DNA of 64,000 bases from an uncultured Methanosarcinales archaeon (GTDB taxonomy: Archaea; Nanobdellota; Nanobdellia; Woesearchaeales; GW2011-AR9). Below, in pieces: positions 8,377 through 54,434 of this stretch. A model generated the notes under the pieces. It had not been told where the DNA came from. It ran no database searches and was given only the letters and a program-made list of their open reading frames with translations. The position numbers and the translations under genes were made by a program. The DNA lies in assembly GCA_964373955.1 (NCBI GenBank), contig CAYJXA010000001.1, forward strand, positions 34,079 through 98,078. The letters run 5' to 3'. How positions within the stretch are numbered: the first letter of the stretch is position 1; each line of letters begins with the position of its first letter.

Positions 8377-9276
8377 ATGAAACGAAAACTCATCAAACAA
8401 GGAGTGGGAGGATTAACCCTCTGCGTCCCTAAACAATGGACTGAAAAGCATAATCTCAAAGCGGGAGATGAGATTATCTTAACAGAGGAACAAGAGAAAT
8501 TAATCCTCACTACTGAAAGCAAACCTGCCCGCGTGAGAAAAGAGCTGGTTATTGATGAGCATTCCTATGAATTCATGACGAGACTGCTTACGAATGCCTA
8601 CAAGAAGGGGGTTGATGAATTAAAGTTAAAATTCAAGAGAGATATACCCTTAGAAATCATTAACAAAGCGTTATCTACCTTAACCATAGGATACGAAATC
8701 ACGGAAGTGGGTAAGGATTATTGTATCATCCAAAGTTTCAGCGCAGAACAGGAAGAGAATATCGCTGTTTCCATTCGGAAATGTTTTTTCCTTATTAAAG
8801 AGATGCAAGAAGTTATTCAGGAAGAGATTGAATATAAAAAGGGAGAGGCAAGAGATAGAATAAAAGCGCTTAATGAAAATGTGCGTAAATTGACCAATTA
8901 TGCGATAAGGACCACTTCCAAAACCATACACGACAATAATATTGTCCAGTATAATACTCTCATTTTTTCTAATTTATATCTTTATTCTATTAAATTAACC
9001 TACATCTATCAAAAAGTGGGAGAAGACAAGAGAATAGGGATAAACACCCGTGAGATTATGAATAATCTTTTTGCGCTATTTGACCTTTTTTATGAGATGT
9101 ACTATAACCAACAATTGCCATCTGCTCACCAATTTCTCCAGCGAAAAGAACAGTTGGTAAAAAAAATCGATGCTGCTGTCGACAAAGGCAACGGAAAGAT
9201 TTTACTGCAAATATCCATGGCTCTGCGCTGCCTGCATGATTCTATCGGTGCAATGATTGGATTAATTATAAAGTAA
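8377..9276 (+). CDS. AbrB/SpoVT-domain plus PhoU-like transcriptional regulator
   Basis: The N-terminus MKRKLIKQGVGGLTLCVPKQW...GDEI is an AbrB/MazE swapped-hairpin motif. The remainder is helical and PhoU-like, an architecture common in archaea. Confidence 0.6.
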   Translation: MKRKLIKQGVGGLTLCVPKQWTEKHNLKAGDEIILTEEQEKLILTTESKPARVRKELVIDEHSYEFMTRLLTNAYKKGVDELKLKFKRDIPLEIINKALSTLTIGYEITEVGKDYCIIQSFSAEQEENIAVSIRKCFFLIKEMQEVIQEEIEYKKGEARDRIKALNENVRKLTNYAIRTTSKTIHDNNIVQYNTLIFSNLYLYSIKLTYIYQKVGEDKRIGINTREIMNNLFALFDLFYEMYYNQQLPSAHQFLQRKEQLVKKIDAAVDKGNGKILLQISMALRCLHDSIGAMIGLIIK

Positions 9277-15778: not shown

Positions 15779-18259
15779 CTACCGCTCCTTATTCCTTTCC
15801 AGAATTTGAATATTGATATCGATCTTCTCCAGCAATTGCCGATACGCCATTCTAATATCATCGCGGAAATGCTCTTTCTTCCGGAAGAATTCTTCAAGGT
15901 CCCGCTTCACTGCTTTATTATCCACATAGGAAAGATTATGCACAAACGTCGGCAGCATGTGGGTACCGCAATTATATTTCTGCAAAAGCATTTTCCAATG
16001 CCGTTTAGTCCAATTCCACAACAATCCCTGGCCAGCTGGATTGATGGATACCATCATCGGAATCATAAATGAATCTTGCAAGCGAACCGTTGCTGACTGC
16101 GACAACTCTAAGGCCCGCTGGAGTAAATTCTTATCCTGAAACAAACCCAATGAGCGCAGTAACTTTCGATTTTCTTCCGGGAGCTCTTCATGTGTATACC
16201 TATCTAGAAGGTAATGGAAAGTTTTTTCATTTCCCTGCCATGCCGCTAAGGCATAAATCGCTCCCCTCAAATTGGAATCAAGAGAAGTGTCTCCCTGTTT
16301 AATCTTATTGAAGAGCGCATTTGCTTTTTGTAAAGTTTCTTTATGTCCTAGCAATCCCAAACTCGCAATGGTAGCTGAACGTAACAGAGTGGTAGTATTT
16401 TTTTCATTTTTTGCCCTCTCCCAGCCAAGCCTGCGAAGCAGCTGCTGGTGGAAAAGCAAACTGGTCTTTTGGATGGAAGTGTATAAAGGCCGGCCATAAA
16501 ACAGCCGTAATAACATTCCCAAATGAGCAGAAATACTGGAATCCAAAGGATATGTTGCCTGCAAACAAGATTTCTCTACGAAAGAGAGATAGTCTTTCAC
16601 TGAACTCTTACCGGCGTGAGTTATAGCAAATAAATCGTTCTCAATTCCCACCGCATCCAGCGGGGATATTTTTTTTGATTTAATTGCCAGTCCTAAAGTG
16701 GAAAGCAAAGCAGCATCATACTTCACTCGATATAGCCCATTCTGACCGTGATTAAGTTTGATCCATTCGCTTTTCTCCGCTACAAGCAGGGATTTTGCCT
16801 GCATAAGTATCCGATGGGCTGATCCTTTCGCCGGGAGATAATGAAGAGGGATCAGCCATTCTCCTTTCAACTTTTTTCCCGTCAAGGTGAAACGCTGTTG
16901 CGTAAGCATAAACCCCTTTTCCGTTTTGGTTACTTCTACAATGGGATAACCCGGCTGAGTGATCCAGCGATTCATCAAACGAACGACATTCTGATCGCGA
17001 TGCGCTTGTTGAATTGCCTTCCAGAGGTCTTCTTTTGTAGCATTAGCGTAGGCATGCTTTTGCAGGTACCTGGTTAACCCTCGGCGAAATACGTCGGGAG
17101 CGACAAAATCTTCCAGCATATGCAGAACACTTCCTCCTTTGTCGTAACTAATGCGATCGAAAATCTCATCAATTTCCCCGGGAGTATTTACCACTACGCT
17201 AATGGGATGGGTTGATTCTAGTTGATCAGCAGAAAGAGCGTCAGCAATAGTGTCTTCATAATATTGCAACATCACATCCCATTCGGGGAAGGACTCATGC
17301 ACTGCCTTGTATCCCATGAAGGTGGCAAAGCTTTCATTCAGCCAGAGATCATCCCACCATTCCATCGTAACCAGATTGCCGAACCATTGGTGTGCTAATT
17401 CATGGGCAATAGTGATTGCAATTTGCTGCTTTACCGCTACACTAGTATGCTCATCGCCAAGCAAGGCAATTTCACGGAACGTAATTGCCCCCCAATTTTC
17501 CATTGCCCCCGAGGCAAAATCAGGAATTGCAATAACATCCAGTTTTGGAAGGGGATAATTAACCTGAAAGTATTTTTCAAAGAATCGCAGGAATGCAGAA
17601 GTATAATGTAACGCTAAGGATGCGTACTTAATCTTTTCCGGAACGGTGAAAACTCTAATTTCAATATCACGATAGCGTGTACTGATATATTTGAAATCTC
17701 CTACGCCCAAATAGAGCAGATACGTTGACATTTTTGGGGAGGTATGAAAGGATACTATTTTTCGATTATCGGGGAGGATTCGTTCCTGCTTAACGGGCAT
17801 GTTAGAGATAGTGAAAAGCTGCCGGGGAACGATCAAAGAAACATCGAACGTGGCTTTGAAAGCTGGCTCATCAAAGCACGGGAATGCCGCTCTGGCATTA
17901 GCGGATTCAAATTGGGTGGTGAGTAAATAGCCCTGGCTGTATTTACTGCGATAAAACCCATACATTCCATCGTTATGCACCCCAGTAAAGTCAAGAGTGA
18001 GTTCTACTTTTCCCTTCAAAGGTTTGGGGAAAGTGAGGATGACTTCCTGATCGGCAGATCGTACCGAAGCATGGAGCTGAGCTGCCTCCGCCTTTCGGAC
18101 CTGCAGCTCTTTCGCGTTGAGCGTAATTACTTTGGTTGGTTTTTTAATTGTAACCAGAATGGAAGCATGCCCCTGAAAATGAAAAGTTTGAAAATTAGGT
18201 TCAAAGCGAAGGGTGTAATGGGAAGGGATTACGTTCGTTCCCAGCGTCTTTCTGGCCAT
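15779..18259 (-). CDS. M1-family aminopeptidase (aminopeptidase N-like)
   Basis: GAMENWG exopeptidase motif plus the zinc-binding HELAHQWFGNLVTMEWW...WLNE motif; 826 aa. Confidence 0.95.
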   Translation of the reverse strand: MARKTLGTNVIPSHYTLRFEPNFQTFHFQGHASILVTIKKPTKVITLNAKELQVRKAEAAQLHASVRSADQEVILTFPKPLKGKVELTLDFTGVHNDGMYGFYRSKYSQGYLLTTQFESANARAAFPCFDEPAFKATFDVSLIVPRQLFTISNMPVKQERILPDNRKIVSFHTSPKMSTYLLYLGVGDFKYISTRYRDIEIRVFTVPEKIKYASLALHYTSAFLRFFEKYFQVNYPLPKLDVIAIPDFASGAMENWGAITFREIALLGDEHTSVAVKQQIAITIAHELAHQWFGNLVTMEWWDDLWLNESFATFMGYKAVHESFPEWDVMLQYYEDTIADALSADQLESTHPISVVVNTPGEIDEIFDRISYDKGGSVLHMLEDFVAPDVFRRGLTRYLQKHAYANATKEDLWKAIQQAHRDQNVVRLMNRWITQPGYPIVEVTKTEKGFMLTQQRFTLTGKKLKGEWLIPLHYLPAKGSAHRILMQAKSLLVAEKSEWIKLNHGQNGLYRVKYDAALLSTLGLAIKSKKISPLDAVGIENDLFAITHAGKSSVKDYLSFVEKSCLQATYPLDSSISAHLGMLLRLFYGRPLYTSIQKTSLLFHQQLLRRLGWERAKNEKNTTTLLRSATIASLGLLGHKETLQKANALFNKIKQGDTSLDSNLRGAIYALAAWQGNEKTFHYLLDRYTHEELPEENRKLLRSLGLFQDKNLLQRALELSQSATVRLQDSFMIPMMVSINPAGQGLLWNWTKRHWKMLLQKYNCGTHMLPTFVHNLSYVDNKAVKRDLEEFFRKKEHFRDDIRMAYRQLLEKIDINIQILERNKER

Positions 18260-19868: not shown

Positions 19869-20981
19869 TTACCCAAACATCCTTTCCAAGAACCCTTTGC
19901 TAGGTTTTTCCTCATGCAACTGCTTAATTAATTCAATCTGCTTCTTGCTTAACTTCTTAGGCACTTCAATCTTTACTTTCACCATTTGATCTCCCTCTTC
20001 TCCATGATGAACATCAGGAAGGCCCATTCCTCCCATTCTAAAAACTGTTTCCGAAGCTGTTCCCGCGGGAATTTTCAAAGTCGCTTTTCCGGTGATAGTG
20101 GGAACTTCAATTTCATCTCCCAGCACTGCCTGCGTAAATGAGATAGGAATCGTAAGGTGCAAATCATTTCCTTTACGTTCAAAGAATTTGTGCGGTTGAA
20201 GATGGATCACCACATATAAATCGCCGTTTGAACCGTTATTTTCTCCCACTTCTCCTTCGCCTGCTACACGCAACTGCATGCCCCCATCTATGCCGGCGGG
20301 AATTTTAACTTCAATCTTCTTCTTCCGTCGTTGTAACCCTTCACCGCCACATTCTTTACAAGAATCTTGAGGTAATTCACCTCTTCCATGGCAGTAAGGA
20401 CAGGGCCCAGTTTGCTGGAAAATGCCGAAGGGTGTGCGCTGCGTTTTTTTCATGTAGCCTGAACCATGGCAATGGTGGCAATTTTCAAAAGAAAGTGCTC
20501 CTTTCCCATGACAAGCAGTGCAACGTTCCAGCTTGTTGAGCTGAATCGTCTTCTCAGCTCCTTTGGCTGCTTCTTCAAGCGTTATCTCTAACTCGTATGC
20601 TAGGTCTGATCCCCTTCTCCCCCGAGAAGATTTCCTGCCTTCCCCTCCAAAAAGGTGATCAAAGACATCATCAAAGTTGCCAAAGGTTCCCGAACGGAAC
20701 TGGGACATGATGTCAGAATAATCAAATCCTTCAAAGCCCCCAGCTCCTCCTTGAAAAGAAGAACTGCCAAATTGATCGTACTGCTGCCGCTTTTTATCAT
20801 CTCCTAACACGGAAACAGCTTCATTAATTTCTTTGAACTTTTCTTCGTATTCCTTCTTCTTATCCTCTGGCGCCCGGTCGGGATGATAAACGAGCGCTAA
20901 TTTCTTGAAAGCTTTCTTTATTTCATCCTTGCTTGCGTTCTTGCTGATTCCCAGGATTTTATAGTAATCTTTGTCGGCCAT
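19869..20981 (-). CDS. dnaJ: chaperone DnaJ
   Basis: J domain YYKILGI...YHPDR; a Gly/Phe-rich region; four CxxCxGxG zinc-finger repeats. Confidence 0.95.
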   Translation of the reverse strand: MADKDYYKILGISKNASKDEIKKAFKKLALVYHPDRAPEDKKKEYEEKFKEINEAVSVLGDDKKRQQYDQFGSSSFQGGAGGFEGFDYSDIMSQFRSGTFGNFDDVFDHLFGGEGRKSSRGRRGSDLAYELEITLEEAAKGAEKTIQLNKLERCTACHGKGALSFENCHHCHGSGYMKKTQRTPFGIFQQTGPCPYCHGRGELPQDSCKECGGEGLQRRKKKIEVKIPAGIDGGMQLRVAGEGEVGENNGSNGDLYVVIHLQPHKFFERKGNDLHLTIPISFTQAVLGDEIEVPTITGKATLKIPAGTASETVFRMGGMGLPDVHHGEEGDQMVKVKIEVPKKLSKKQIELIKQLHEEKPSKGFLERMFG

Positions 20982-20985
20982 GTAG

Positions 20986-21612
20986 TTAGTTAAGATTTAT
21001 TTTTTCTCCTAATTCTTCTGCTGTAAAAAGGAGGTGATTAAATAGTTTGCGTTCATAATCATATTGTTCCTGTTGTACGTCTTCCCAATTAATGTTTCTT
21101 TTCCGGATCCAATGCCCGTAGCGTTCATAAATGTAGTTCATGCGCTGAGCTAAAGGAACGACTTTATTTCCCAAGACTCGCCAATCAACATAATGGATAA
21201 ATCTGGTTTCTTCACTTACTTCCGCTTTAGGGTTTCTAGTTAATCCATCTAATTCCAGGAATAAGTGCGCAAATTCAGGGAATTCTTCTTTGAGCAGCAG
21301 GTAGGTAACGTATGTTTCGGAATGTCCTTTATATTGTTCCCGTAGTTTCTGATGCATTTGAACTTCGTCGGGGGTTGGTTGGTAATTGTAAGGGGGATCA
21401 GTGAGCCGTTCCAAGACCACCGCTTTCATGAAGTCGTGCAAGAGCGAGAAAGGAGCAATAACTTCTACTTTAATTGGATATCCTTCTCGTTGCAATTCTC
21501 CTGCGAGAAAGATCGCTACTTTGTGAACAGTTTTGCAATGTTCTTTGACTGTGCCTGGAACTTTATACTGCTCGAAGAGTTCCTGGCAATGCTGAAGGGT
21601 GGGGAGATTCAT
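20986..21612 (-). CDS. HD-domain phosphohydrolase
   Basis: H...H...LLHDFMK arrangement typical of HD metal-binding residues. Confidence 0.55.
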   Translation of the reverse strand: MNLPTLQHCQELFEQYKVPGTVKEHCKTVHKVAIFLAGELQREGYPIKVEVIAPFSLLHDFMKAVVLERLTDPPYNYQPTPDEVQMHQKLREQYKGHSETYVTYLLLKEEFPEFAHLFLELDGLTRNPKAEVSEETRFIHYVDWRVLGNKVVPLAQRMNYIYERYGHWIRKRNINWEDVQQEQYDYERKLFNHLLFTAEELGEKINLN

Positions 21613-22250
21613 GACAATAATTCCCTCCTAGCCCTTTCAATACTCTTAGGAACCATTTCTATTAATACATCTCTCAGACGTTGATAAGCTGGAAAAAGTT
21701 CACAGAAAGCTATTGGAAGTTTATTCATGCCGGCATACACGGGTAATACTTCTATCAGGGGCGTAGACGCTGCATCTTGGTACAGTTCCCGAACTAAAAG
21801 TTCCGGTCTTTTGGCTACTGGCAAGATTAAATGGACATCCTCTCTAACTCGCGTCGGCTGAAAACAAGGTCCCGCTATTCTTAATCCAATTTCTTCCAGA
21901 GCTTGATTTCGAGATTGTTCTTCAAAACTAGCCAGAGCATAGAAGCAGCTATTAACAGAGTCTACTCCCGCATGGACACCGAACAAGGCAATTTCTCCTG
22001 CTAAATGAAGAAGTTCTGGAATGGAATGTGCATACACGCCATTTTCAAGAGCGGAAGCGACAAAAGCAGCTTTAGTTTCTGGGGTGGCTTTTACTGTTCC
22101 ATCTGGAAATAATCCACACCCACTAGAAGAAACAGTAATTCTATCGGCTAGGCCTTGCTTGCGGATATAATCACTCGCAATTGCTTCGGCCATAGGGCTC
22201 CGTCCATTATTGCCGTAACAGACATATTCTATGTTAATATGTTGATTCAT
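21609..22250 (-). CDS. LMW protein-tyrosine-phosphatase / ArsC-like protein (paralog 1)
   Basis: CYGNNGRSPMAEAIA is a CX5R(S) P-loop, as in LMW-PTP and ArsC. The likely start is the internal Met; its ATG overlaps the upstream stop codon. Confidence 0.65.
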   Translation of the reverse strand: MNQHINIEYVCYGNNGRSPMAEAIASDYIRKQGLADRITVSSSGCGLFPDGTVKATPETKAAFVASALENGVYAHSIPELLHLAGEIALFGVHAGVDSVNSCFYALASFEEQSRNQALEEIGLRIAGPCFQPTRVREDVHLILPVAKRPELLVRELYQDAASTPLIEVLPVYAGMNKLPIAFCELFPAYQRLRDVLIEMVPKSIERARRELLS

Positions 22251-23554
22251 GATAATTTTCTCACTACTCCTTTCTCCGCATCTACCTCGACTTCCTCCCC
22301 TTCCTGTAACACTTTCGTGGCAATTTTTGTGCCAATAACACAAGGCTTTTTCATCTCCCGGCAGACAATCGCTGCATGAGACGTAACTCCCCCCAAATCT
22401 GTAACTACTGCGCCTGCTAATTTCATCACCGGAACATAATCCGGGGTGGTTTCAGAAACAACCAAGATGTCTCCAGGGTTCATTCGGTGAAAATCGTGAA
22501 CAGACTTAAGCAGCTTTACTTTTCCTTTGGCTTTGCCCAGTGAAGCCGGCATGCCTTTGATATGGTCTATTCCCGTTACTTTTACAGCTATATTTTCTTT
22601 TTCTCCCGCTAGTTCGTTCCCCACAAAAATATGTTCCTCGCCATCAATTACGATAATGCCAAACCCCTTCATTCGTTCTCGCAAGGTAGTTTGAGCTTGG
22701 AATTGTTTGTCTCTGATTTCTGTAAGAGTATGCTGCACCATCTCCTCAAAAGTTAATCCTTGCTGGCGAGCAAGCGTCTCAAACCAAGGCCAGAAGTGGA
22801 AGGCAATTTTGTTCAGGCTTTCGATGAAGTGAAAACGGAGAAATGCTAATCCCTCAGCCACTTTTAATTCCGGCCAGTGTAAATCTAGAGGTTTTATGTC
22901 CGCGTGCAAAGGAGGTTCAAAAGTGCGTAGTTCTTCTCTTACTTTTTCTTTGGAGAGCGGCGTTCCCCACATGACATTAATGGTGGTCCAGCTGTATTTT
23001 TGTAGGAAGGTTGAAATATCCTGTTCGGTGAGCTTGCCTTGTTGATGGAGCGAAGCAAGTTTGGCGAATTGCGCGTCTCGTTCCATGAATTCAAGCCCTT
23101 CATGTTTTATCTGTCCCAAAACAGGGTACAATTCAATACCTTCCTGGGCGCATTTTTCACGTAAAGCTTTGGTAATCCCTTCATCAATTTGGTGAATTAT
23201 TAACCAGTAACACATCATGAGGCGTAAGTTCTCTAAGAAGAGATGGAATGAACCTAGGGAAGAATAATCATATCGTGCGGTAAGAAATTCTTGCGCTGAT
23301 TTTTTTGCGTCGGAAATAAAGGTAAATAAGTATTCAAAATCTTTCTCTTTCATCTTTGCATAAAAAAATTGTTCTAAGGCATCCCAGCCTTCTTTATCCA
23401 TGAATACTTCTCCATCAACGACTTTATATCCTTCTTTTATCGCCGGGAGATTATGTTTTTTGAAGACATGCTGAGAGTAGTAATGAGCGAAGAGGGAGCT
23501 GGTTAAAGGGACTGATTCCCAATGTCCTAGATATCGCCAGGTTGTTTCTTTCAT
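22247..23554 (-). CDS. uncharacterized helical domain fused to C-terminal PEP-utilizing-enzyme mobile (phosphohistidine swivel) domain, paralog A
   Basis: The C-terminus GDILVVSETTPDYVPVMKLAGAVVTDLGGVTSHAAIVCREMKKPCVIG matches the swivel domain. The N-terminal part has no ATP-grasp (PPDK_N) motifs. Confidence 0.7.
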   Translation of the reverse strand: MKETTWRYLGHWESVPLTSSLFAHYYSQHVFKKHNLPAIKEGYKVVDGEVFMDKEGWDALEQFFYAKMKEKDFEYLFTFISDAKKSAQEFLTARYDYSSLGSFHLFLENLRLMMCYWLIIHQIDEGITKALREKCAQEGIELYPVLGQIKHEGLEFMERDAQFAKLASLHQQGKLTEQDISTFLQKYSWTTINVMWGTPLSKEKVREELRTFEPPLHADIKPLDLHWPELKVAEGLAFLRFHFIESLNKIAFHFWPWFETLARQQGLTFEEMVQHTLTEIRDKQFQAQTTLRERMKGFGIIVIDGEEHIFVGNELAGEKENIAVKVTGIDHIKGMPASLGKAKGKVKLLKSVHDFHRMNPGDILVVSETTPDYVPVMKLAGAVVTDLGGVTSHAAIVCREMKKPCVIGTKIATKVLQEGEEVEVDAEKGVVRKLS

Positions 23555-24636
23555 GGTATTTTTCGTACTGTTCCTTTTTCTGCGTCTACTTCGACAAGGT
23601 CGCCGTCTTTGAATATCTTCGTTCCATAATTAGTTCCTACAATACAGGGAATGCCTAGTTCTCTACTTACGACAGCCGCATGCGACATCAATCCACCCTG
23701 ATCGGCAACAATAGCCTTTGCTCTACTGCATAACGCCATCAATTCCGGACTCGTGGTTTGTGCTATCAAAATTGCACCATCTTCCATCCTGTCAAAAACT
23801 TTTTGAACCAGAGACATATCATTAAACATTGGCGCAATAACTACTTTCCCGGTTACTTTTCCCTTATTAGCGATCGTTCCGGTAACCGAATCCTGCATTT
23901 TCGTTGGTAGTAAAGACTGTACCAGTATTCCAGCTTCTCTTTCTGGAATTTCAGAAATCTCTCCCTCCTGAGACAAGAGAGCAATGCATTCTTTTCTCTT
24001 CAGTATATTTTCCATATTTGGCTTTTCACCATCAAACAAATCCAAGATTTCTTGGTACGAGAGATATCGAGCGCTATCATCATCATGGAAATATTTTCGC
24101 GAGAAATAACACACGATATTAGGGATAACTCCATTGAGGAAAAAGAACTGACTCATTACTTTTCTCCCTTCCACTTTTGCTTCATAAAGATCATGTAAAT
24201 GAGGTGTAATGACTGGATTTTCCTCTTTCTTTTGGAAGGCAAGATTATGATGAGGAAATTCCGTGAACCCATACCAATACCAGTAGTTTTCAAGGAATTG
24301 AACTACGGAAACGAATTCTTCTTTAGTCATTTTTTCTGGAATCTGGCTATATTTGGAGAGAATATGCTTTTGTGCATGATCAATATGATGTCGCAATGCT
24401 GTTGATACCTTTTGATACTCCTGCGGATTGCTGAAGATTCGTACACCTTCCTGGAGGCATTTTTCTTCTCCTTCTCTATCAATAAAAGTACTCCAAAGCC
24501 CATTAGTGTATAAAATCACGATCTTATTTCTAGCGAGAGATGTTCTCCCGAAGATTTCACAATTTAGAAAAGAAGCAGTGATGATTCCATGGAACAATGG
24601 TTTAAAGTCTTGAGGATTTAGATTCATTTTAATCAT
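23551..24636 (-). CDS. helical domain plus PEP-utilizing swivel domain protein, paralog B
   Basis: C-terminus IVADQGGLMSHAAVVSRELGIPCIVGTNYG; overlaps the neighbouring genes by 4 nt. Confidence 0.7.
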   Translation of the reverse strand: MIKMNLNPQDFKPLFHGIITASFLNCEIFGRTSLARNKIVILYTNGLWSTFIDREGEEKCLQEGVRIFSNPQEYQKVSTALRHHIDHAQKHILSKYSQIPEKMTKEEFVSVVQFLENYWYWYGFTEFPHHNLAFQKKEENPVITPHLHDLYEAKVEGRKVMSQFFFLNGVIPNIVCYFSRKYFHDDDSARYLSYQEILDLFDGEKPNMENILKRKECIALLSQEGEISEIPEREAGILVQSLLPTKMQDSVTGTIANKGKVTGKVVIAPMFNDMSLVQKVFDRMEDGAILIAQTTSPELMALCSRAKAIVADQGGLMSHAAVVSRELGIPCIVGTNYGTKIFKDGDLVEVDAEKGTVRKIP

Positions 24637-26045
24637 AAAGAGGAAGTGTTAGATAACTTACGTACGGTGCCTGTTTCAGCGTCCACTTCCACTATATCTC
24701 CATCTTTAAATGCGGTCGTAGCAATATGCGTTCCCACAAGGCAAGGGATTTTAAATTCTCTGCTGATAATCGCAGCATGTGATAACATTCCGCCTTCTTC
24801 TGTCACGATCGCTCCAGCCCTGCTGGCAATATCAACGATATTCGGTTGAGTCATTTGGGTTATAAGAATATCTCCTTTCTTAAACGTCATGCGCAGTTCA
24901 TTATTTTGTTGAATGTTATTTGACTGTAAAATTCTAGCTATTCCTCTACATTTCCCGGAATTAGCGACCATCCCCTTCACTTCATCATTTTCTTTTATTT
25001 CATAAAGATTTCCTAATTCTTTCTTAGCTACATCCTCGGCTTCATTACCGGAGATTAGAATCACTTTTCCCGCTTTTAAAAGTCCCACTACGCATTTCTT
25101 TCGGTTGTTTTTTTCTTCCGAGGACAGAAATTCATGTTTCAACAATAGCTTTTCTATCTCTGGTGAGAAGTAATATTTAGTAAGATCAGATATATTTTCT
25201 CCCGTCCTGCGGGCAATTTCCGCAAATAAAGGAATAGTATAAAATTCAGTGCCTGCCCAGCAAGACTTAACTTCCATTCTGGACATCGCCAATTGCTGTG
25301 CGCGATGCACCAAAATCTGTAATTCCGGCTTGGAGGAAAGGATTGCTTCCTGCTTTTGCTGCAATTCCTCTTTTTCCCGACGTATATCCTTCCATTTTTG
25401 GTGCACAGAATCATGAGCATATCGTTGAGAAAGCGTGCCTAGAACATCATTCATGGTGAAATGGCAGGCCACCAGCCAAGGGTATTTTTCCACGTGGGTT
25501 ATCATTCTTGATTCGGAATAGGGTTGTGGTAGTATTTCCTGCCATTCCAGCTGTTCTTGGTTTAATACATCCACGCCGACAGGAGTAAGTAACACGGAAA
25601 CGTCTTTATCCGTACAATGTTTTCGTATGGCTTCGAGCAAATAATGCATTCCCTCTACTTGAGTTGGCCGGAAATAACTAATGGTTAATTGCCATTGCTT
25701 CCTAGCCTCAAGAACAAGATCCATTAATTCCTGATCAGAAATGTTTTGCCAAGGAATATTCTTTAATGACGTAAAAAAAGCGCGATGTTCTGTGCAGCGC
25801 TGCTTCAAGTCCTGTAAGAATCTAGCAGAAAGATTCTCATCGAGGAAAATTTTTCCTCTTTCTTGGTCTTCCTGCAGATCCTCGCTGGAGTGAAAGGTAG
25901 AAATGCGATTATCTCGAGAGATTTGGATGATATTTTTAGCTTGGTTCCAAGGAAAAAAATGGGGAAATTCCAGAAAACAAAATAGATTCAGCTCAATAGT
26001 CCAATGGGCTTGATAATTTCCCCATAAATATTGATAGTGTGGCAT
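24633..26045 (-). CDS. helical domain plus PEP-utilizing swivel domain protein, paralog C
   Basis: C-terminus GDILITQMTQPNIVDIASRAGAIVTEEGGMLSHAAIISREFKIPCLVG. Confidence 0.7.
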   Translation of the reverse strand: MPHYQYLWGNYQAHWTIELNLFCFLEFPHFFPWNQAKNIIQISRDNRISTFHSSEDLQEDQERGKIFLDENLSARFLQDLKQRCTEHRAFFTSLKNIPWQNISDQELMDLVLEARKQWQLTISYFRPTQVEGMHYLLEAIRKHCTDKDVSVLLTPVGVDVLNQEQLEWQEILPQPYSESRMITHVEKYPWLVACHFTMNDVLGTLSQRYAHDSVHQKWKDIRREKEELQQKQEAILSSKPELQILVHRAQQLAMSRMEVKSCWAGTEFYTIPLFAEIARRTGENISDLTKYYFSPEIEKLLLKHEFLSSEEKNNRKKCVVGLLKAGKVILISGNEAEDVAKKELGNLYEIKENDEVKGMVANSGKCRGIARILQSNNIQQNNELRMTFKKGDILITQMTQPNIVDIASRAGAIVTEEGGMLSHAAIISREFKIPCLVGTHIATTAFKDGDIVEVDAETGTVRKLSNTSSL

Positions 26046-26051
26046 ACGTCC

Positions 26052-26711
26052 TTAACCTAGTAATTCTCTGACAGCTCTATCTACCGTTCTTGGAACTGCA
26101 ATCCGCAAATGATCTCGTGCAGCTCGATATTCCGGAAGCAATCTGCAGAAAGGATTTGGTACATCTCCTTCCATCCCAGCGTATTCATTGAGAAGGGCAA
26201 TAGTTGGAGTATACCCAGAACCAGCGTATATTTGTCGAACTTGGTCTAGATTAGCTTTTGCCATAGCTAAGACGACATGTTGATCATCACTTCCATGAAG
26301 CATTGTAGGCCGATGATATTCGCGAGTAGCAACCAAACCTGCTTCCATCAATACTTGATCTCGAAATATTGCCTCTGCGCGAACCACATAATCAAATAAT
26401 TCTTGCACTAACTCTGGATCAGTTCCATGGCCCTGACCCTCCGCTAAGACTGCGGCAGCCTGATCTCTTCTCCACGATTCTTGATACACTCCGTTTGCAG
26501 CCGCCATTCGTACTATTTGCAGTTGTGCTTGAGTTTTCTCAGCTCCTTCTCTGAGGAACATTGGATGTAATCCGCTTCCACTCGAACGAACTCGCACTCT
26601 GTCCGCTAAGCCTTGTCGATGAACGTAGTCAGTAGCGATTGCCTCTGCTTGAGGACTTCTGCCATTATTCCCGGTACATACATATTCTAACGTCAAAAAA
26701 TTTTCAGTCAT
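26052..26711 (-). CDS. LMW-PTP / ArsC-like protein (paralog 2)
   Basis: CTGNNGRSPQAEAIA is a CX5R P-loop. It is clearly paralogous to the ORF at 21609-22250. Confidence 0.65.
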   Translation of the reverse strand: MTENFLTLEYVCTGNNGRSPQAEAIATDYVHRQGLADRVRVRSSGSGLHPMFLREGAEKTQAQLQIVRMAAANGVYQESWRRDQAAAVLAEGQGHGTDPELVQELFDYVVRAEAIFRDQVLMEAGLVATREYHRPTMLHGSDDQHVVLAMAKANLDQVRQIYAGSGYTPTIALLNEYAGMEGDVPNPFCRLLPEYRAARDHLRIAVPRTVDRAVRELLG

Positions 26712-26713: not shown

Positions 26714-27505
26714 TTATTTTCCTCCTTGTTGCATTCTTTCCATCATCCTCTGCACTGCCTGATCATGCAAATAACCTGCTTGCGTTTCCGTTAATCTTTC
26801 CCTTCCCATCATCGCTGCGCTAACTGCAAGCATAAAGTTATTCATTGACTCTTGCATTTGCATATTGCGAACATGATTTGGAAGGGCCATTTCCGTGCAT
26901 GCTTTCTCTCCACATACCAATATCCCCGGGCTAAACCCTATAAATGTGGGCTCAGGATAGGTGAAATGTTTTCTCTCAACATCACCGCCAAGCTTATACG
27001 GAGGAACTTTCCCGCAAAAACCACACAATTCACCACGCTCATTATCATCTCCATCCAGTATAAACCTTTGGTTAACGATTACTAATCCCCCCCGTTGCCC
27101 TGGCGATAATCGAGCAATATCTTCCAGGGGAATTGTGCCAACTGTTCCTTTAGTAGTTTCATACTTGACACGACACCCATCTATTGGGGAGCCTTCTCCT
27201 CCAATCTCCGGAAGGTGATAGATTGGTCGAGGGGTAACTCCGTGCCTTTCTCTGTACTCTCGCAAAGATTGATTAAATTCTGGAAGCGCTCTACGAAGTT
27301 GAGCGATGATATATTCATCAGCCCATCTCTGTAGCCTATGTAGACCCCGCCCAGAGTAGCGTCTGGTGTCCCAACGATTATTCAAGTTGAGGACTCTTTT
27401 TCGCTTATCCAACACCATTTTATATTCAGGACTACACCAGAGAGCTGCATTTCGAGCCATCATCGCATCCAAAGTAGCATTCCCGGTAGGTTCGTCTTTA
27501 AACAT
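26714..27505 (-). CDS. hypothetical protein (first gene of cluster 1)
   Basis: 263 aa in the same orientation and tightly packed with the cluster; includes CGFCGK and CGEKAC Cys pairs. Confidence 0.45.
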   Translation of the reverse strand: MFKDEPTGNATLDAMMARNAALWCSPEYKMVLDKRKRVLNLNNRWDTRRYSGRGLHRLQRWADEYIIAQLRRALPEFNQSLREYRERHGVTPRPIYHLPEIGGEGSPIDGCRVKYETTKGTVGTIPLEDIARLSPGQRGGLVIVNQRFILDGDDNERGELCGFCGKVPPYKLGGDVERKHFTYPEPTFIGFSPGILVCGEKACTEMALPNHVRNMQMQESMNNFMLAVSAAMMGRERLTETQAGYLHDQAVQRMMERMQQGGK

Positions 27506-27566: not shown

Positions 27567-29405
27567 CTACTTCTCCTTAAACTCCGCATCGACAACATTG
27601 TCGTCGTCAGAGGAAGGTTTGCTATCATGCGCACCTTTCTCAGCACCCTGCTTAGCAGCAGCTTCTTGATACATCTTGGCGCCAATCTCCTGCACAATCT
27701 TATTCAACTCTTCGATCTTCTTGGTAATCGTGGCAGGTTCGCCTTCCTTCCGGGCATCTTCCACTGCTTTAATCTTCTCTTCAATTTTTGTTTTCAGGGC
27801 GGCATCAACCTTATCGCCAAACTCCTCGAGTACCTTACGGGTTTGGTATACGACAGCATCAGCATTATTTTCTGCTTCAATCTTGTCCCGCAACTTCTTA
27901 TCATCAGCTTCATGCTCCTGTGCTTCTTTCTTCATGCGCTCGACTTCATCTTTACTCAAAGCACTGGAACCAGTAATTTTAATCCGTTGTTCTTTTGCGG
28001 TTCCTAAATCCTTAGCAGACACGTGCATGATTCCATTGGCGTCAATATCAAAGGTAACTTCAATCTGCGGCACTCCCCGAGGAGCTGGTGGAATTCCCAC
28101 TAAGTCAAATTGCCCCAGTACTTTATTATCTGCAAACATGGGGCGTTCCCCTTGCGCTACTCGAATGGTAACCGCAGGCTGGTTATCCGCTGCCGTTGAA
28201 AAGATCTGCGATTTCTTGGTAGGAATGGTCGTATTTCGTTCAATTAATTTAGTAAACACTCCTCCCAGAGTTTCAATGCCCAAACTCAGAGGAGTAACAT
28301 CCAAAAGCAATACATCCTTAACATCCCCGGCTAATACTCCTGCTTGAATGGCTGCTCCTACCGCAACCGCTTCGTCAGGATTGACGGATTTATCTCCTTC
28401 TTTTCCAGTCAATCGTTTGACTAATTCCTGCACCGCAGGGATTCTGGTGGATCCACCTACAAAAATAACCTTGTTGATTTTATCCAATGATAATCCAGCA
28501 TCTTTCAGGGCATTCTTGGTAGGCACTTCCAATCGTTTTAAGATAGAGGCAATTAATTCTTCAAATTTAGCTCTACTCAACTCTTCCTTAAGATGTTTTG
28601 GCCCGGTGCTATCAGCGGTAATGAAAGGAAGGCTAATTTCTACTTTCATTTTACTGGAAAGTTCAATTTTTGCTTTCTCGGCAGCTTCTTTTAAACGCTG
28701 CACAGCAGTAGCATCATTCCGTAAATTTATGCCGGTGGATTTCTTGAAATTATCCATCAAGAAATTCATGATAATTTCGTCAACATCATCCCCACCAAGA
28801 TAATTATCACCATTGGTGGCTTTCACTTCAAAGACTCCCCCGCCTAATTCCAGGATAGAAACGTCAAAGGTTCCCCCGCCAAAATCAAAAACTAAAATGG
28901 TGTGATCTTTCTCTTGCTTATCTAATCCGTACGCAAGTGCAGCAGCAGTGGGTTCATTAATAATGCGCAAGACATTCAATCCGGCAATTTCTCCCGCATT
29001 TTTCGTTGCTTGCCGTTGTGCATCGTTAAAATATGCCGGAACAGTAATAACCGCATTCTTCACCGGCTGGCCAAGATAGGCTTCGGCATCCCGTTTTAAT
29101 TTCTGTAGAATCATCGCCGATATCTGCTCGGGAGTGTATTCCTTGCGATCGATCTCCACTTTCTCATTTGATCCCATTTTCCGTTTAATGGAACGTACCG
29201 TATGGGAAGGATCAACAATCGCCTGATTTCGGGCAATCTGCCCCACAATTATTTCTTCATCTTTAATATGCACCACGCTGGGGGTGGTTCTGGTTCCTTC
29301 TGCATTGCTAATAATTGCCGGTTTTCCTGCTTCCATTACCGCTACCGCTGAAAAAGTCGTTCCTAAGTCTATTCCAATAGTTGCTCCTGATGTTTTAGTT
29401 GCCAT
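27567..29405 (-). CDS. dnaK: chaperone DnaK (Hsp70)
   Basis: [22 protein letters not shown] and the overall 612-aa organisation are classic Hsp70. Confidence 0.97.
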
Positions 29406-29967
29406 TTTTGTTTTGTTCCTCCATATGAGTTTGATTTTGTTGGCCGGCGCTTATTTTTACTCGAGCATGCCGGAGCACTTGACCATGTAAAGTAAATCCT
29501 TTCTGGAACACTTCTAAAATAGTGTTCGCTGGCTGGGATGATTCTACTTTCAGCAAGGCTTCATGACGATAAGGATCAAAACTGGTTTTTTCTGTGGTGA
29601 TGGGTTGAACCCCTAACCGTTGCAAGACGTCAAAGAGTTGAGAATAAATTAATTCTACTCCTTTCACGAATTCTTCGGGATGAGCGCGGGCATTCTTTAA
29701 GGCTAATTCAAAATTATCAATGAGCGGCAAGAGTTGGATGATAACATCTTTCGCTGCTACTTGTTTTAGGTCTTCAATCCTCTTCTCAGTCTGCTTGCGA
29801 TAATTTTCAAAGTTGGCTTGGGTGCGCTGGAGTAATTCGGTGAGTTCTTGAACTTGATTTTCGATAATAGGTGTTACATTTATCTCCTCACGTTGAGAGA
29901 TGGGATGAGCCCCGTCTGAATCGTTTTTGTCTGCTACGATGTTATCGTGTATCTTTTCTTTAGCCAT
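29395..29967 (-). CDS. grpE: nucleotide exchange factor GrpE
   Basis: Coiled-coil N-terminus and GrpE-like C-terminus. It overlaps the dnaK start. The start is taken at the internal Met (MAKEK). Confidence 0.8.
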
Positions 29968-30076
29968 ACTTTTCACCTTATTTGTTGAGTTTAAGTCAAC
30001 TAGAACTATCCAAAATAAGCCTTCTATATAAATCTTGTGGAAAAAGTTTAAAAGAAGAGCCGTATTAAGGGAAACA

Positions 30077-30472
30077 ATGGCGTATCGTGTTACACTTGTC
30101 CGGATTCGAAAAACCCAGGGAGGAAACCTCAATCAGGAATTACAATGGCTAGGAAATTCATTGGGATTATTTAATCTGAGGGATAGGGATAGCAGTTGTT
30201 TCCGAGTATTTATTACCTTAGTCCGAGCAGCAAACCAGGATAAGCCGCTTACCTCCGATGAAATTGCGGAGCGATTGCACTTAAGCCGAGGAACTGTTGT
30301 GCATCACCTGCATCGCTTGATGGAATCAGGAATAGTCGTGAAAGAAAAAGAGGGATATTTATTGAGAGAGAGTTCCATTGAGCGATTGATTAAAGATATT
30401 CACCAAGATATGGAAATGATGTTTTCTGAACTATCGGATGCGGCAAGGCAGATTGACGAGAGCTTGAGATAG
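30077..30472 (+). CDS. winged-helix transcriptional regulator divergent from grpE-dnaK (candidate heat-shock regulator)
   Basis: LTSDEIAERLHLSRGTVVHHLHRLMESGIV is an HTH. Its position is divergent from the chaperone operon. Confidence 0.45.
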   Translation: MAYRVTLVRIRKTQGGNLNQELQWLGNSLGLFNLRDRDSSCFRVFITLVRAANQDKPLTSDEIAERLHLSRGTVVHHLHRLMESGIVVKEKEGYLLRESSIERLIKDIHQDMEMMFSELSDAARQIDESLR

Positions 30473-50380: not shown

Positions 50381-50679
50381 TAACAGGAATATGTGTTTCA
50401 CCGGGAACAGCAGAAGGAATTATTCGCATCCATCAAGAAGGGAGAACGTACACGAAGGAAGATATTATTGTCTTACAACGATGGTTAACTCATGAAGTAC
50501 TCAGCCTCAAAAATGCCGGTGCTTTAATTTCGGCAGGGGGAGGCATTACCTGCCATGCTTCGATTATTGCGAGAGAATTAAAAATTCCCGCATTAGTTAG
50601 TGCAGACGTTTCCTCGTTACGCGAAGGACAGTGTGTTTTCATAAACACCATCGAAGAAAGTATCGAGGTACGAGCATGA
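50377..50679 (+). CDS. standalone PEP-utilizing-enzyme mobile (phosphohistidine swivel) domain protein
   Basis: GTAEGIIRI...EDIIVLQ...GALISAGGGITCHASIIARELKIPALV. The gene encodes only the 100-aa domain. Confidence 0.7.
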   Translation: MITGICVSPGTAEGIIRIHQEGRTYTKEDIIVLQRWLTHEVLSLKNAGALISAGGGITCHASIIARELKIPALVSADVSSLREGQCVFINTIEESIEVRA

Positions 50680-52272: not shown

Positions 52273-52275
52273 ACT

Positions 52276-53654: not shown

Positions 53655-53658
53655 GGAA

Positions 53659-54432: not shown

Positions 54433-54434
54433 AC

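What the first reader, a model, noticed from the sequence alone, without database searches (positions are those of the whole stretch)
21609..22250. Paired LMW-PTP/ArsC-fold paralogs with CX5R P-loop bracketing the swivel-domain array
The ORFs at 21609-22250 and 26052-26711 are clear paralogs, with motifs EYVCYGNNGRSPMAEAIASDY and EYVCTGNNGRSPQAEAIATDY. Each is placed at one end of the three-gene swivel array. A cysteine-phosphatase fold next to His-phosphocarrier domains suggests a kinase/phosphatase toggle or a phospho-Cys relay. It does not look like arsenic resistance, since no arsB/arsR is nearby.
Basis: partly seen in the sequence, partly recalled or inferred. Interest (0 to 1): 0.55.

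Follow-up and report, generated by a model that had tools for sequence, protein, structure and literature searches.

The report
Acid-less LMW-PTP paralogs partnering phosphohistidine modules
Two related cysteine-phosphatase-like genes that lack the usual catalytic acid flank three phosphohistidine-carrier genes inside the Hsp70 (grpE-dnaK-dnaJ) operon of a DPANN archaeon, and this pairing recurs in dozens of related genomes and appears undescribed.

Summary
Minus-strand ORFs 21609-22250 (PTP-A, 213 aa) and 26052-26711 (PTP-B, 219 aa) are paralogs (41% identity, E=1e-43). Both have an intact C-x-G-N-N-G-R-S P-loop, and they flank three PF00391 swivel genes.

They are not ArsC. By sequence profile and predicted fold they are closest to the YwlE branch of LMW-PTPs. 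They belong to an uncharacterised "long" branch of about 210 aa with a three-helix insertion. The second P-loop Cys is Gly. The D-loop general acid Asp is Asn in PTP-B and Ile in PTP-A.

The swivel genes resemble rifampin-phosphotransferase/HpeH modules: an acceptor-binding domain plus a His swivel, with no ATP-grasp domain.

In 35 distinct related loci, 27 have a swivel gene within 3 kb of the PTP gene. One bacterial protein fuses a swivel, an ATP-grasp and five LMW-PTP domains. In Woesearchaeota the cassette sits in a translationally coupled operon: grpE-dnaK-(ORF263)-PTP-swivels-PTP-HD-dnaJ.

My preferred mechanism is that Cys12 takes the phosphoryl carried by the swivel histidine, acting as a reset phosphatase or a phospho-Cys carrier. 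This is inferred, not shown. A product phosphatase is the main rival. This is a new variant of a known kind, of moderate interest.

The parts
26052..26711 (-). PTP-B: long LMW-PTP-like protein, 219 aa. P-loop C12-T-G-N-N-G-R18-S19. D-loop N186-P-F-C189 (Asn in place of the general-acid Asp).
21609..22250 (-). PTP-A: divergent paralog, 213 aa. P-loop C11-Y-G-N-N-G-R-S. D-loop I180-A-F-C (no Asp or Asn). Belongs to a subclade (with P0294 and P0166) that always lies directly upstream of HD-dnaJ.
26655..26678 (-). Codons of the PTP-B P-loop CTGNNGRS
26145..26156 (-). Codons of the PTP-B D-loop NPFC (Asn186 replaces the general acid; Cys189 is conserved in the Woesearchaeota clade)
22197..22220 (-). 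Codons of the PTP-A P-loop CYGNNGRS
24633..26045 (-). sw470: RPH/HpeH-like module made of a helical acceptor-binding domain plus a C-terminal His swivel (S422-H423-A-A). No ATP-grasp domain.
23551..24636 (-). sw361: second swivel module with a different N-domain type and a catalytic-His motif SHAA at residues 318-321. This is the type most often paired with PTP-B orthologs elsewhere.
22247..23554 (-). sw435: third swivel module with a third N-domain type; motif TSHAA, with SHAA at residues 392-395.
20986..21612 (-). HD-domain phosphohydrolase-like protein (208 aa). It is the constant dnaK/dnaJ companion in relatives and is fused to sw470-type proteins in P0042 and P0052.
26714..27505 (-). ORF263: unknown protein between dnaK and PTP-B. 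Homolog found only in L001/L002. Not a core part.
27567..29405 (-). dnaK (Hsp70), upstream in the same gene row
29395..29967 (-). grpE, first gene of the row; TTTATATA box upstream
19869..20981 (-). dnaJ, last conserved gene of the row
30035..30472 (+). Divergent wHTH regulator (ArsR/MarR/Lrs14-like), conserved next to grpE in all dnaK-linked relatives

Best explanation
PTP-A and PTP-B are members of an uncharacterised 'long' branch of the LMW-PTP superfamily, related to YwlE, that serves as the cysteine-based partner of RPH/HpeH-type phosphohistidine swivel modules. The proposed mechanism has three parts. (1) The swivel domains of the three neighbouring proteins carry a phosphoryl group on their conserved His. 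The donor is an ATP-grasp component encoded elsewhere, or another phospho-compound. This follows by homology to RPH/HpeH. (2) The PTP P-loop (C-x-G-N-N-G-R-S) binds that phosphoryl, and Cys12 attacks it, giving Cys~P. This step is inferred. A P-N donor such as pHis needs little leaving-group protonation, which would explain why the D-loop Asp can be Asn, Ile, Val or Thr. (3) Cys~P is then hydrolysed, resetting or limiting the charged modules, or is held as a carrier. In the Asn/Ile forms present in this window, hydrolysis is predicted to be slow. The cassette is co-transcribed and translationally coupled with grpE-dnaK...HD-dnaJ, so it would operate under the same (stress) regime. Shown here: the fold, the motifs, the paralogy, the conserved adjacency, the fusions and the operon structure. 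Inferred: the identity of the phosphoryl donor, the His-to-Cys step, and the fate of Cys~P.
For: The AF2 model of PTP-B is confident (pLDDT 93.5). Its best Foldseek PDB hits are YwlE, YfkJ and canonical LMW-PTPs, with TM-score on the target 0.73-0.80. The family profile scores YwlE at 87 bits (E=1e-23) against 18-30 bits for ArsC. C12, G14, N15, R18 and S19 are invariant. Among 163 long family members, the acid column is Asn in 91, Asp in 38 and other residues in the rest, so the acid is dispensable. The sw470 AF2 model (pLDDT 93.6) matches rifampin phosphotransferase over 470-580 columns at E=1e-13, without an ATP-grasp domain. HpeH-type components lacking an ATP-grasp domain are known, and HpeH alone catalyses phosphotransfer (PMC12167813). 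Adjacency: 24 of 32 distinct PTP loci have a swivel gene within 3 kb, 19 of them within 200 nt, and 16 of the 18 loci with at least 1.5 kb of sequence on both sides do. Three further Asp-type members were also swivel-adjacent. PTP-B orthologs pair with different N-domain types (sw470-type, sw361-type, sw498-type), while the swivel domain is the constant element. That points to the swivel domain rather than a specific product as the partner. The fusion protein P0159 combines a swivel, a PPDK_N ATP-grasp and 5 LMWPc domains with 'ENP' D-loops, with no RIF-BD-like domain detected. Gene overlaps of 4 nt run through the cassette.
Against: There is no biochemical or docking evidence for a His-to-Cys step. 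Asp-type long members are equally swivel-adjacent, so loss of the acid is not what defines the partnership, and ordinary phosphatase chemistry on a product remains possible. Some genomes keep the PTP in the dnaK-HD-dnaJ operon with no swivel gene nearby (L035, L049), and L018 has none either. The PTP-A subclade is coupled to the HD gene, not obviously to swivel genes. No ATP-grasp domain was found in the window, so it is unknown whether the modules are ever charged.
Confidence: 0.4

Rival explanations
1. Product phosphatase (toggle). The swivel modules, together with an ATP-grasp partner, phosphorylate a small molecule or glycan, and the PTP-like enzymes remove that phosphate. This would resemble glucan-water-dikinase with the Cys-based phosphatases SEX4/LSF2, or the kinase-then-dephosphorylation logic of phenol and hydroxyphenylethanone pathways.
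For: Conserved adjacency and operon coupling. Asp-type members with a canonical DPF D-loop are also swivel-adjacent. HAD hydrolases and divergent TrmB (sugar-type) regulators recur beside the pair. RPH-family enzymes phosphorylate hydroxyl groups of small molecules (PMC4844700, PMC12167813). The GWD/SEX4 analogy rests on my own knowledge.
Against: O-phosphomonoester hydrolysis normally needs the D-loop acid, which is Asn in PTP-B and Ile in PTP-A. One PTP type pairs with several different acceptor-domain types, which is unexpected for a product-specific phosphatase. No substrate is identifiable.
Confidence: 0.25
2. Stress-linked protein phosphatase. This would be a YwlE-like enzyme that dephosphorylates pArg, pTyr or pHis on chaperone clients, on the wHTH regulator, or on DnaK, DnaJ or the HD protein. 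The swivel genes would then be mere neighbours.
For: The best sequence and fold matches are YwlE arginine phosphatases. The PTP stays in the dnaK-HD-dnaJ operon even without swivel genes (L035, L049). At least 10 distinct loci place it within 5 kb of Hsp70-system genes. YwlE/McsB control heat-shock proteostasis in Firmicutes (abstracts listed).
Against: Both residues reported to recognise the pArg guanidinium in YwlE, Thr11 and Asp118, are replaced: Asn16, and Asn186 or Ile180. The polar P-loop position 5 and the missing acid argue against pTyr. No McsB-like kinase was seen in the 45 window ORFs scanned. Many PTP-swivel pairs lie far from any Hsp70 gene.
Confidence: 0.12
3. Catalytically impaired pseudo-phosphatase that binds phosphate or a phospho-ligand. 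It would act as a regulatory or docking subunit for the swivel or HD proteins. This applies especially to PTP-A.
For: The PTP-A clade has Ile, Val or Thr at the acid column and lacks the acidic residue three positions upstream. One of the five LMWPc domains in P0159 has lost the Cys. PTP-A evolves faster: it is 40% identical to all PTP-B-type proteins.
Against: Cys, Arg, Ser and Asn of the P-loop are strictly conserved in both paralogs and across about 165 family members. That conservation implies chemistry at the Cys rather than mere binding.
Confidence: 0.12
4. Thioredoxin-coupled arsenate reductase (pI258 / B. subtilis ArsC type).
For: The superfamily and P-loop are shared, and there is a weak profile match to ArsC structures (18-30 bits). 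A wHTH gene with ArsR-family similarity lies 3.3 kb away.
Against: PTP-B has only C12 and C189, with no conserved Cys pair equivalent to Cys82/Cys89. The YwlE score is about 60 bits higher than the ArsC score. No NCBIfam ArsC model matches. No arsB or ACR3 was found among the scanned window ORFs. The wHTH gene is the conserved grpE neighbour.
Confidence: 0.02

Closest known systems
YwlE / PtpB / DARP protein arginine phosphatases (LMW-PTP family, PDB 4KK3, 4ETN, 4PIC, 7BTG)
   Same: They are the best sequence-profile match (87 bits) and among the best fold matches. They share the CTGN..RSPMAE P-loop context and the same core topology. Position 5 of the P-loop is polar rather than Ile. Both have a stress-operon context.
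   Different: The window proteins are about 65 residues longer, with a three-helix insertion between beta2 and beta3. P-loop Thr11 is Asn, and the second Cys is Gly. D-loop Asp118 is Asn or Ile. No McsB kinase was found. The partner genes are swivel-domain modules.
Two-component small-molecule dikinases HpeHI, PpsAB and CreHI, and the single-chain rifampin phosphotransferase RPH (for the neighbouring swivel genes)
   Same: sw470 has the RIF-binding-like helical domain plus the C-terminal His swivel with a GG..SHAA motif, like HpeH. The ATP-grasp domain is encoded separately. In relatives it appears fused or as a stand-alone 308-aa gene.
   Different: No ATP-grasp domain lies in this 64-kb window. 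There are three different modules in tandem. They are associated with an LMW-PTP-like gene, an HD gene and the Hsp70 operon. The substrate is unknown. The lineage is archaeal DPANN.
Glucan-water dikinase with the Cys-based phosphoglucan phosphatases SEX4/LSF2
   Same: A His-swivel dikinase paired with a CX5R cysteine phosphatase, forming a phosphorylation/dephosphorylation cycle.
   Different: The phosphatase fold differs (DSP versus LMW-PTP). SEX4 keeps its general acid. No carbohydrate-binding modules were detected here. This is an analogy from my own knowledge and was not tested.
PTS phosphorelay, EI (swivel His) to EIIB-Cel/Lac (phospho-Cys on an LMW-PTP-like fold)
   Same: A pHis carrier of the PF00391 family sits next to a small Rossmann-like protein with an N-terminal nucleophilic Cys loop. 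There is no general acid, as in EIIB.
   Different: There is no meaningful PF02302 match (1 of 27 members at E=0.0076). The full CX5RS phosphatase loop is retained. No HPr, EIIA or EIIC is present. Fold similarity to EIIB was not tested here.

Membership tests
LMW-PTP superfamily (Pfam PF01451) | Four-stranded Rossmann-like alpha/beta fold with the phosphate-binding loop after beta1 | tested here: met
   AF2 model pLDDT 93.5. Foldseek finds 61 PDB hits at E<=1e-3, and all 50 listed are YwlE or other LMW-PTP-fold structures, TMt 0.69-0.80.
LMW-PTP superfamily (Pfam PF01451) | C-x-G-N-x-x-R-S/T P-loop with nucleophilic Cys, Arg and Ser | tested here: met
   CTGNNGRS in PTP-B and CYGNNGRS in PTP-A. 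C, N, R and S are invariant in the family.
LMW-PTP superfamily (Pfam PF01451) | D-loop general acid/base Asp (D-P-Y/F) | tested here: not met
   N186-P-F in PTP-B and I180-A-F in PTP-A. Among long family members the column is Asn 91, Asp 38, other 34; 8 of the 9 canonical short homologs (the ninth has no 2nd-Cys column) have Asp together with a second P-loop Cys.
LMW-PTP superfamily (Pfam PF01451) | Size of about 150 aa and a full-length Pfam match | tested here: not met
   213 and 219 aa. Pfam aligns mainly residues 8-55 or 10-47. A three-helix insertion spans H56-72, H79-91 and H99-123.
YwlE-type protein arginine phosphatase | Thr at P-loop position 5 (Thr11) recognising the guanidinium | tested here: not met
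   Asn16 in PTP-B and Asn15 in PTP-A. The role of Thr11 is taken from PMC7772506.
YwlE-type protein arginine phosphatase | Asp118 in the D-loop (guanidinium recognition and acid catalysis) | tested here: not met
   Asn or Ile at the aligned column. The role of Asp118 is taken from bioRxiv 10.64898/2026.01.13.697720.
YwlE-type protein arginine phosphatase | Closest overall sequence relationship | tested here: met
   Profile A1 against the PDB: YwlE 87 bits, next YfkJ 58 bits, canonical LMW-PTPs 40-50 bits.
YwlE-type protein arginine phosphatase | Cognate McsB-type arginine kinase in the genome | not tested
   None seen among 45 window ORFs scanned in Pfam. The rest of the genome was not available.
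Thioredoxin-coupled ArsC (pI258 / B. subtilis type) | Cys10-Cys82-Cys89 disulfide cascade | tested here: not met
   PTP-B has only C12 and C189. No conserved Cys pair lies in the middle region of alignment A1.
Thioredoxin-coupled ArsC (pI258 / B. subtilis type) | ars operon neighbours (arsB/ACR3, arsR) | tested here: not met
   No arsenic transporter among the scanned ORFs. The wHTH gene is the conserved grpE neighbour. No NCBIfam ArsC hit.
PTS EIIB (Lac/Cel type, PF02302) phospho-Cys carrier | Sequence membership in PF02302 | tested here: not met
   1 of 27 members at E=0.0076, below the curated cutoff. There is a faint hit in fusion protein P0159.
PTS EIIB (Lac/Cel type, PF02302) phospho-Cys carrier | Receives phosphoryl from a pHis donor onto Cys | not testable with these tools
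   Only adjacency to PF00391 genes and the fusion protein bear on this. It needs biochemistry.
RPH/HpeH-type dikinase (neighbouring swivel genes) | C-terminal His swivel domain with a GG-x-x-S-H-A-A motif | tested here: met
   PF00391 at E=1e-23 to 1e-25. The SHAA motif is present in all three proteins.
RPH/HpeH-type dikinase (neighbouring swivel genes) | RIF-binding-like acceptor domain | tested here: met
   Foldseek hits to 5FBU, 5FBT and 5HV1 at E=1e-13, 468-581 aligned columns, TMq 0.51-0.57. This was tested for sw470 only.
RPH/HpeH-type dikinase (neighbouring swivel genes) | ATP-grasp (PPDK_N) nucleotide-binding domain, in cis or as a partner gene | tested here: not met
   No PPDK_N homolog in any of 432 window ORFs. 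It is present in relatives L020, L021, L037 and L042, and in P0041, P0043 and P0110.

The most novel reading that the evidence does not exclude
The long, acid-less LMW-PTP-like proteins are true phospho-Cys carriers. They would exchange phosphoryl with the swivel histidines of ATP-grasp-less dikinase modules, giving a PTS-like His-to-Cys phosphorelay assembled from RPH-type parts. In DPANN archaea this relay would be wired into the Hsp70 operon together with an HD hydrolase, as a stress-coupled phosphotransfer or marking system, possibly protein-directed and analogous to McsB/YwlE.
Probability: 0.18. Interest if true: 0.8.

Novelty: new variant of a known kind. Interest (0 to 1): 0.55.

Why it matters
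If the coupling is real, it defines a previously unannotated partnership between two large and well-studied enzyme superfamilies: LMW-PTPs and swivel-histidine dikinases. It would also give a function-guiding context to hundreds of 'hypothetical' DPANN and CPR proteins. The natural Asp-to-Asn/Ile variants offer a test of how a PTP scaffold can be retuned from hydrolase to phosphoryl acceptor or carrier. The embedding in the grpE-dnaK-HD-dnaJ operon suggests an unexplored phosphotransfer layer in the stress response of ultra-small archaea. If these are merely product phosphatases, the finding is a useful annotation but not a surprise.

Tried and rejected
(1) ArsC assignment. Rejected on the Cys pattern, the profile scores and the gene context.

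(2) Loss of the D-loop Asp as a marker of the swivel partnership. In the first 34 loci, Asn-type genes were swivel-adjacent while the two informative swivel-less loci (L018, L035) were Asp-type. I then tested three further Asp-type long members (P0153, P0162, P0168), and all three are immediately followed by swivel genes. The correlation is therefore rejected.

(3) Anti-phage defence system. The idea came from TA and AbiEii neighbours in relatives. No PADLOC match was found for any cassette protein.

(4) An ATP-grasp domain hidden in the window, possibly ORF263. phmmer and jackhmmer with four PPDK_N domains found nothing in 432 window ORFs.

(5) The 822-838-aa relatives as complete RPH-like enzymes. 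They are in fact fusions of two swivel modules, sw361-type plus sw470-type.

(6) EIIB membership. There is no credible PF02302 match.

(7) Literature. Six successful full-text searches found no paper on an LMW-PTP/PEP-utilizer association or on a Woesearchaeota dnaK operon. One search call failed on term length.

(8) I could not inspect model coordinates, so the distances from N186, C189 and E113 to C12 remain unchecked.
Full report
OBSERVATION

The minus strand of the window carries a tight gene row. Numbers between genes are intergenic gaps in nt; negative values are overlaps.

grpE (29395-29967) -11 dnaK (27567-29405) +61 ORF263 (26714-27505) +2 PTP-B (26052-26711) +6 sw470 (24633-26045) -4 sw361 (23551-24636) -4 sw435 (22247-23554) -4 PTP-A (21609-22250) -4 HD (20986-21612) +4 dnaJ (19869-20981).

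The two flagged ORFs are real paralogs with 41% identity over 216 residues, E=1e-43. Both match Pfam LMWPc, mostly through the N-terminal P-loop region. The ATG start of PTP-A at 22250 is supported by the 4-nt overlap with sw435 and by the N-termini of homologs P0294 and P0166. The three genes between the paralogs all end in a PF00391 'PEP-utilizers' swivel domain, at E=1e-23 to 1e-25.

WHAT THE TWO PROTEINS ARE

An AlphaFold2 model of PTP-B, built on 27 homologs, is confident (pLDDT 93.5, pTM 0.90).
- It shows the LMW-PTP core in the order beta1, P-loop, alpha1, beta2 ... beta3, alpha, beta4, D-loop, alpha.
- It also shows a three-helix insertion (H56-72, H79-91, H99-123) between beta2 and beta3. 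This accounts for the extra ~65 residues.
- Foldseek against the PDB returns only YwlE and other LMW-PTP-fold proteins at the top, including YfkJ, TT1001, Primo-1/DARP and the mammalian enzymes, with TM-score on the target of 0.73-0.80.

A profile of the family scores as follows against PDB sequences:
- B. subtilis YwlE: 87 bits, E=1e-23, with both halves aligned.
- YfkJ: 58 bits.
- Canonical LMW-PTPs: 40-50 bits.
- ArsC: only 18-30 bits.

PTP-B contains just two cysteines, C12 and C189. Nothing corresponds to the Cys82/Cys89 pair of thioredoxin-coupled ArsC. No NCBIfam ArsC model matches. None of the 45 window ORFs scanned in Pfam is an arsenic gene. The nearby ArsR/MarR-like wHTH gene (30035-30472) is the conserved divergent neighbour of grpE in every dnaK-linked relative. 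The proteins are therefore YwlE-related LMW-PTP-fold proteins and not ArsC.

HOW THEY DEPART FROM KNOWN LMW-PTPs

In a profile search of 1.84 billion representative proteins, 64 score below E=1e-30. The best 150 hits are dominated by a 'long' class of 185-260 aa with the signature E-[FYM]-V-C-T-G-N-x-G-R-S-P.
- C12, N15, R18 and S19 are essentially invariant.
- The second P-loop Cys of canonical enzymes is Gly in 146 of 172 aligned sequences.
- P-loop position 5 is polar, mostly Asn.
- The D-loop general-acid column is Asn in 91, Asp in 38 and another residue in 34 of the 163 long members. By contrast, 8 of the 9 canonical short hits (the ninth has no 2nd-Cys column) have Asp together with the second P-loop Cys.

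PTP-B reads N186-P-F-C189. PTP-A reads I180-A-F-C and has also lost the acidic residue three positions upstream.

In YwlE, Thr11 (P-loop position 5) and Asp118 recognise the phosphoarginine guanidinium, and the D-loop Asp is the general acid/base of LMW-PTPs (PMC7772506; bioRxiv 10.64898/2026.01.13.697720). Both positions are replaced here. The proteins therefore fail the defining tests for a pArg phosphatase and for a canonical pTyr phosphatase, while keeping everything needed to bind a phosphoryl group and attack it with Cys.

PTP-A belongs to its own small subclade (P0150 = itself, P0294 and P0166, at 45% identity). This subclade has P-loop C[FY]GNNGRS and Val, Thr or Ile at the acid column.

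THE NEIGHBOURS

An AF2 model of sw470 (pLDDT 93.6) matches Listeria rifampin phosphotransferase (5FBU, 5FBT, 5HV1) at E=1e-13 over 468-581 columns, with TMq 0.51-0.57. The match covers the helical rifampin-binding-type acceptor domain and the C-terminal His swivel. There is no ATP-grasp domain.

This is the architecture of HpeH, the swivel-plus-acceptor component of the two-component dikinase HpeHI. Its ATP-grasp component is a separate protein, and HpeH alone can pass phosphate between phospho-compounds (PMC12167813).

All three window proteins keep the catalytic-His motif. sw470 also has an invariant R256-x-x-x-K260. This recalls RPH Arg666/Glu667/Lys670 (PMC4844700), but the resemblance is in sequence pattern only and was not checked by structural superposition.

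The three N-domains are of different types. No PPDK_N ATP-grasp homolog exists in any of the 432 window ORFs.

Homologs of sw470 occur in several fusions:
- with PPDK_N (P0041, P0043, P0110);
- with a second swivel module (P0031);
- with the HD protein of this very operon (P0042, P0052).

CONSERVATION OF THE ARRANGEMENT

I fetched 55 related loci and mapped cassette genes with phmmer.
- Among 32 distinct PTP genes, clustered at 90% identity, 24 have a swivel gene within 3 kb and 19 have one within 200 nt.
- Of the 18 loci with at least 1.5 kb of sequence on both sides, 16 have a swivel gene within 3 kb.
- Three further Asp-type members were all swivel-adjacent. The total is 27 of 35.
- Ten loci lie within 5 kb of Hsp70-system genes.
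- The recurrent Woesearchaeota layout is: wHTH (divergent), grpE, dnaK, (ORF263), PTP, swivel(s), a variable insert (DUF1016/YhcG or AbiEii), HD, dnaJ.
- Elsewhere the PTP-swivel pair sits beside a divergent TrmB regulator, sometimes with a HAD hydrolase or TA genes.
- PTP-B orthologs pair with sw470-type, sw361-type or sw498-type modules. The swivel domain is the constant partner element.
- PTP-A-type genes always lie directly upstream of HD-dnaJ. L026 has swivel, PTP-A, HD, dnaJ. L049 has dnaK, DUF1016/YhcG, PTP-A, HD, dnaJ, with no swivel.
- L035, on a 1.2-Mb contig, has grpE-dnaK-PTP-HD-dnaJ with no swivel.

The 'bracketing' is therefore better read as two units: [PTP-B + swivel modules] and [PTP-A + HD], both inserted between dnaK and dnaJ.

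A bacterial MAG encodes P0159 (1679 aa). It has an N-terminal region, a swivel domain (205-298), a PPDK_N ATP-grasp domain (524-850) and five tandem LMWPc domains. Three of the five have 'ENP' D-loops and one has lost the Cys. This is a Rosetta-stone link between the two families.

MECHANISM

Shown:
- The fold, an intact nucleophile and P-loop, a missing acid, and the paralogy.
- Conserved adjacency and fusion with swivel-His dikinase parts.
- Translational coupling within the Hsp70 operon.

Inferred: the PTP-like proteins act on the phosphoryl group handled by the swivel modules.

I favour direct His-to-Cys12 transfer, as a reset phosphatase or a carrier, with confidence 0.4. There are three reasons:
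- The acid is evolutionarily dispensable in the family, as expected for a P-N donor.
- The partner's acceptor domain varies while the swivel domain is constant.
- P0159 joins a swivel, an ATP-grasp and LMWPc domains without a detected RIF-BD-like acceptor domain.

With Asn or Ile in the D-loop, hydrolysis of Cys~P should be slow, so a carrier role cannot be excluded.

The rivals are:
- Product phosphatase in a dikinase/phosphatase cycle (0.25). Asp-type members are equally swivel-linked, and HAD and TrmB neighbours hint at small-molecule or sugar chemistry.
- Stress-linked protein phosphatase tied to DnaK/HD (0.12).
- Pseudo-phosphatase or regulatory subunit, especially PTP-A (0.12).
- ArsC (0.02).

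A TTTATATA box precedes grpE, and a TTTATAAA lies in the 61-nt dnaK-ORF263 gap with no oligo-T run. Both read-through from dnaK and an internal promoter are therefore possible. These short motifs could occur by chance.

A TESTED AND FAILED IDEA

In the first locus set, Asn-type PTPs were swivel-adjacent, and the two swivel-less informative loci were Asp-type. I predicted that Asp-type long members would lack swivel neighbours. Three of three tested (P0153, P0162, P0168) have them. The partnership therefore belongs to the whole long family, irrespective of the acid.

NOVELTY AND VERDICT

No PADLOC family matches any cassette protein. No NCBIfam model names the PTPs. Full-text searches found nothing on an LMWPc/PEP-utilizer partnership or a Woesearchaeota dnaK operon of this kind.

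The components belong to known superfamilies. What appears new is the combination of four things:
- the long, acid-variable LMW-PTP branch;
- its dedicated pairing with ATP-grasp-less RPH/HpeH modules;
- its residence in the Hsp70 operon of DPANN archaea;
- its association with an HD protein.

I rate it a new variant of a known kind, interest 0.55. The function is inferred, and the decisive experiments are simple.

Noticed in passing
window 49271-56815 (+): A second cluster of swivel-domain genes. It holds two stand-alone swivel domains (50377-50679, 100 aa; 52276-52632, 118 aa), each followed by an unknown ~340-aa ORF (50631-51644; 52611-53654). It also holds a 212-aa ORF with no Pfam hit (51634-52272), an ORF that by eye looks like an ABC ATPase (53626-54432, not scanned in Pfam) and a 498-aa N-domain-plus-swivel protein (55319-56815). 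By eye, TrmB-like HTH genes flank it (48024-49154; 54435-55178). The window therefore holds six PF00391-type domains and no ATP-grasp domain.
   Followed up: partly
L027 18-5057 (protein P0159, bacterial MAG GCA_044450935.1): A 1679-aa fusion of an N-terminal region, a swivel, a PPDK_N ATP-grasp and five tandem LMWPc domains. Three have 'ENP' D-loops and one lacks the catalytic Cys. It is followed by a 250-aa ORF and a 2040-aa protein with PPDK_N and swivel domains.
   Followed up: partly
window 20986-21612 (-); proteins P0042, P0052: The HD-domain protein between PTP-A and dnaJ is the constant dnaK/dnaJ companion in all related loci. It is fused to the C-terminus of sw470-type proteins in P0042 (698 aa) and P0052 (668 aa). 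Its weak NCBIfam similarities are to TIGR00295 and to the HD part of DVU_1551-family NTP transferases.
   Followed up: partly
L001 12048-13070; L003 13224-14572; L049 332-1339: In relatives, the slot between the swivel genes (or dnaK) and HD-dnaJ carries variable insertions. These are a DUF1016_N/YhcG_C nuclease-like gene, or a 161-aa ORF plus an AbiEii toxin. The interior of this dnaK operon seems to tolerate or attract accessory genes.
   Followed up: no
window 26714-27505 (-): ORF263 between dnaK and PTP-B has no Pfam, NCBIfam or PADLOC match. It has Cys-rich stretches (CGFCGK ... VCGEKAC) and a homolog only in L001/L002. A TTTATAAA box lies about 25 nt upstream of its ATG, in the 61-nt gap after dnaK.
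   Followed up: partly
L007 2770-5691; L021 1-8652; L020 2889-6659; L037 8767-12831: Relatives carry striking swivel arrays. One is a 973-aa protein with three PF00391 domains. Another is five consecutive swivel genes plus a stand-alone 308-aa ATP-grasp gene upstream of a PTP-like gene. There are also 1257-1355-aa proteins with an N-terminal ATP-grasp domain and, in the 1257-aa protein, two swivel domains (the 1355-aa L037 protein was matched only on its ATP-grasp domain).
   Followed up: partly
L005, L011, L052, L053, L054 (gene upstream of the PTP): A divergently transcribed TrmB-family regulator repeatedly precedes the PTP-swivel pair when the pair is not inside the dnaK operon. A HAD hydrolase follows or precedes the pair in L054/L055 and L010.
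   Followed up: no
window 9266-11014 (-) and 15779-18259 (-): A 582-aa protein has an APH-family phosphotransferase domain (E=1e-8). An 826-aa protein carries an HELAHQWFGNLVTMEWW gluzincin motif, which looks like an M1 aminopeptidase by eye and was not scanned. The rest of the window is ordinary archaeal housekeeping: SAM synthetase, L1/L10, exosome Rrp4/41/42, aIF2-alpha, DAP epimerase, Fpg and, read by eye only, a proteasome alpha subunit.
   Followed up: no
L012, L013, L017, L021-L025 (record titles): Several TPA MAG records that carry this Woesearchaeota-type dnaK/PTP/swivel cassette are titled 'uncultured Methanosarcinales archaeon'. This looks like a taxonomic mislabel of DPANN bins.
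   Followed up: no
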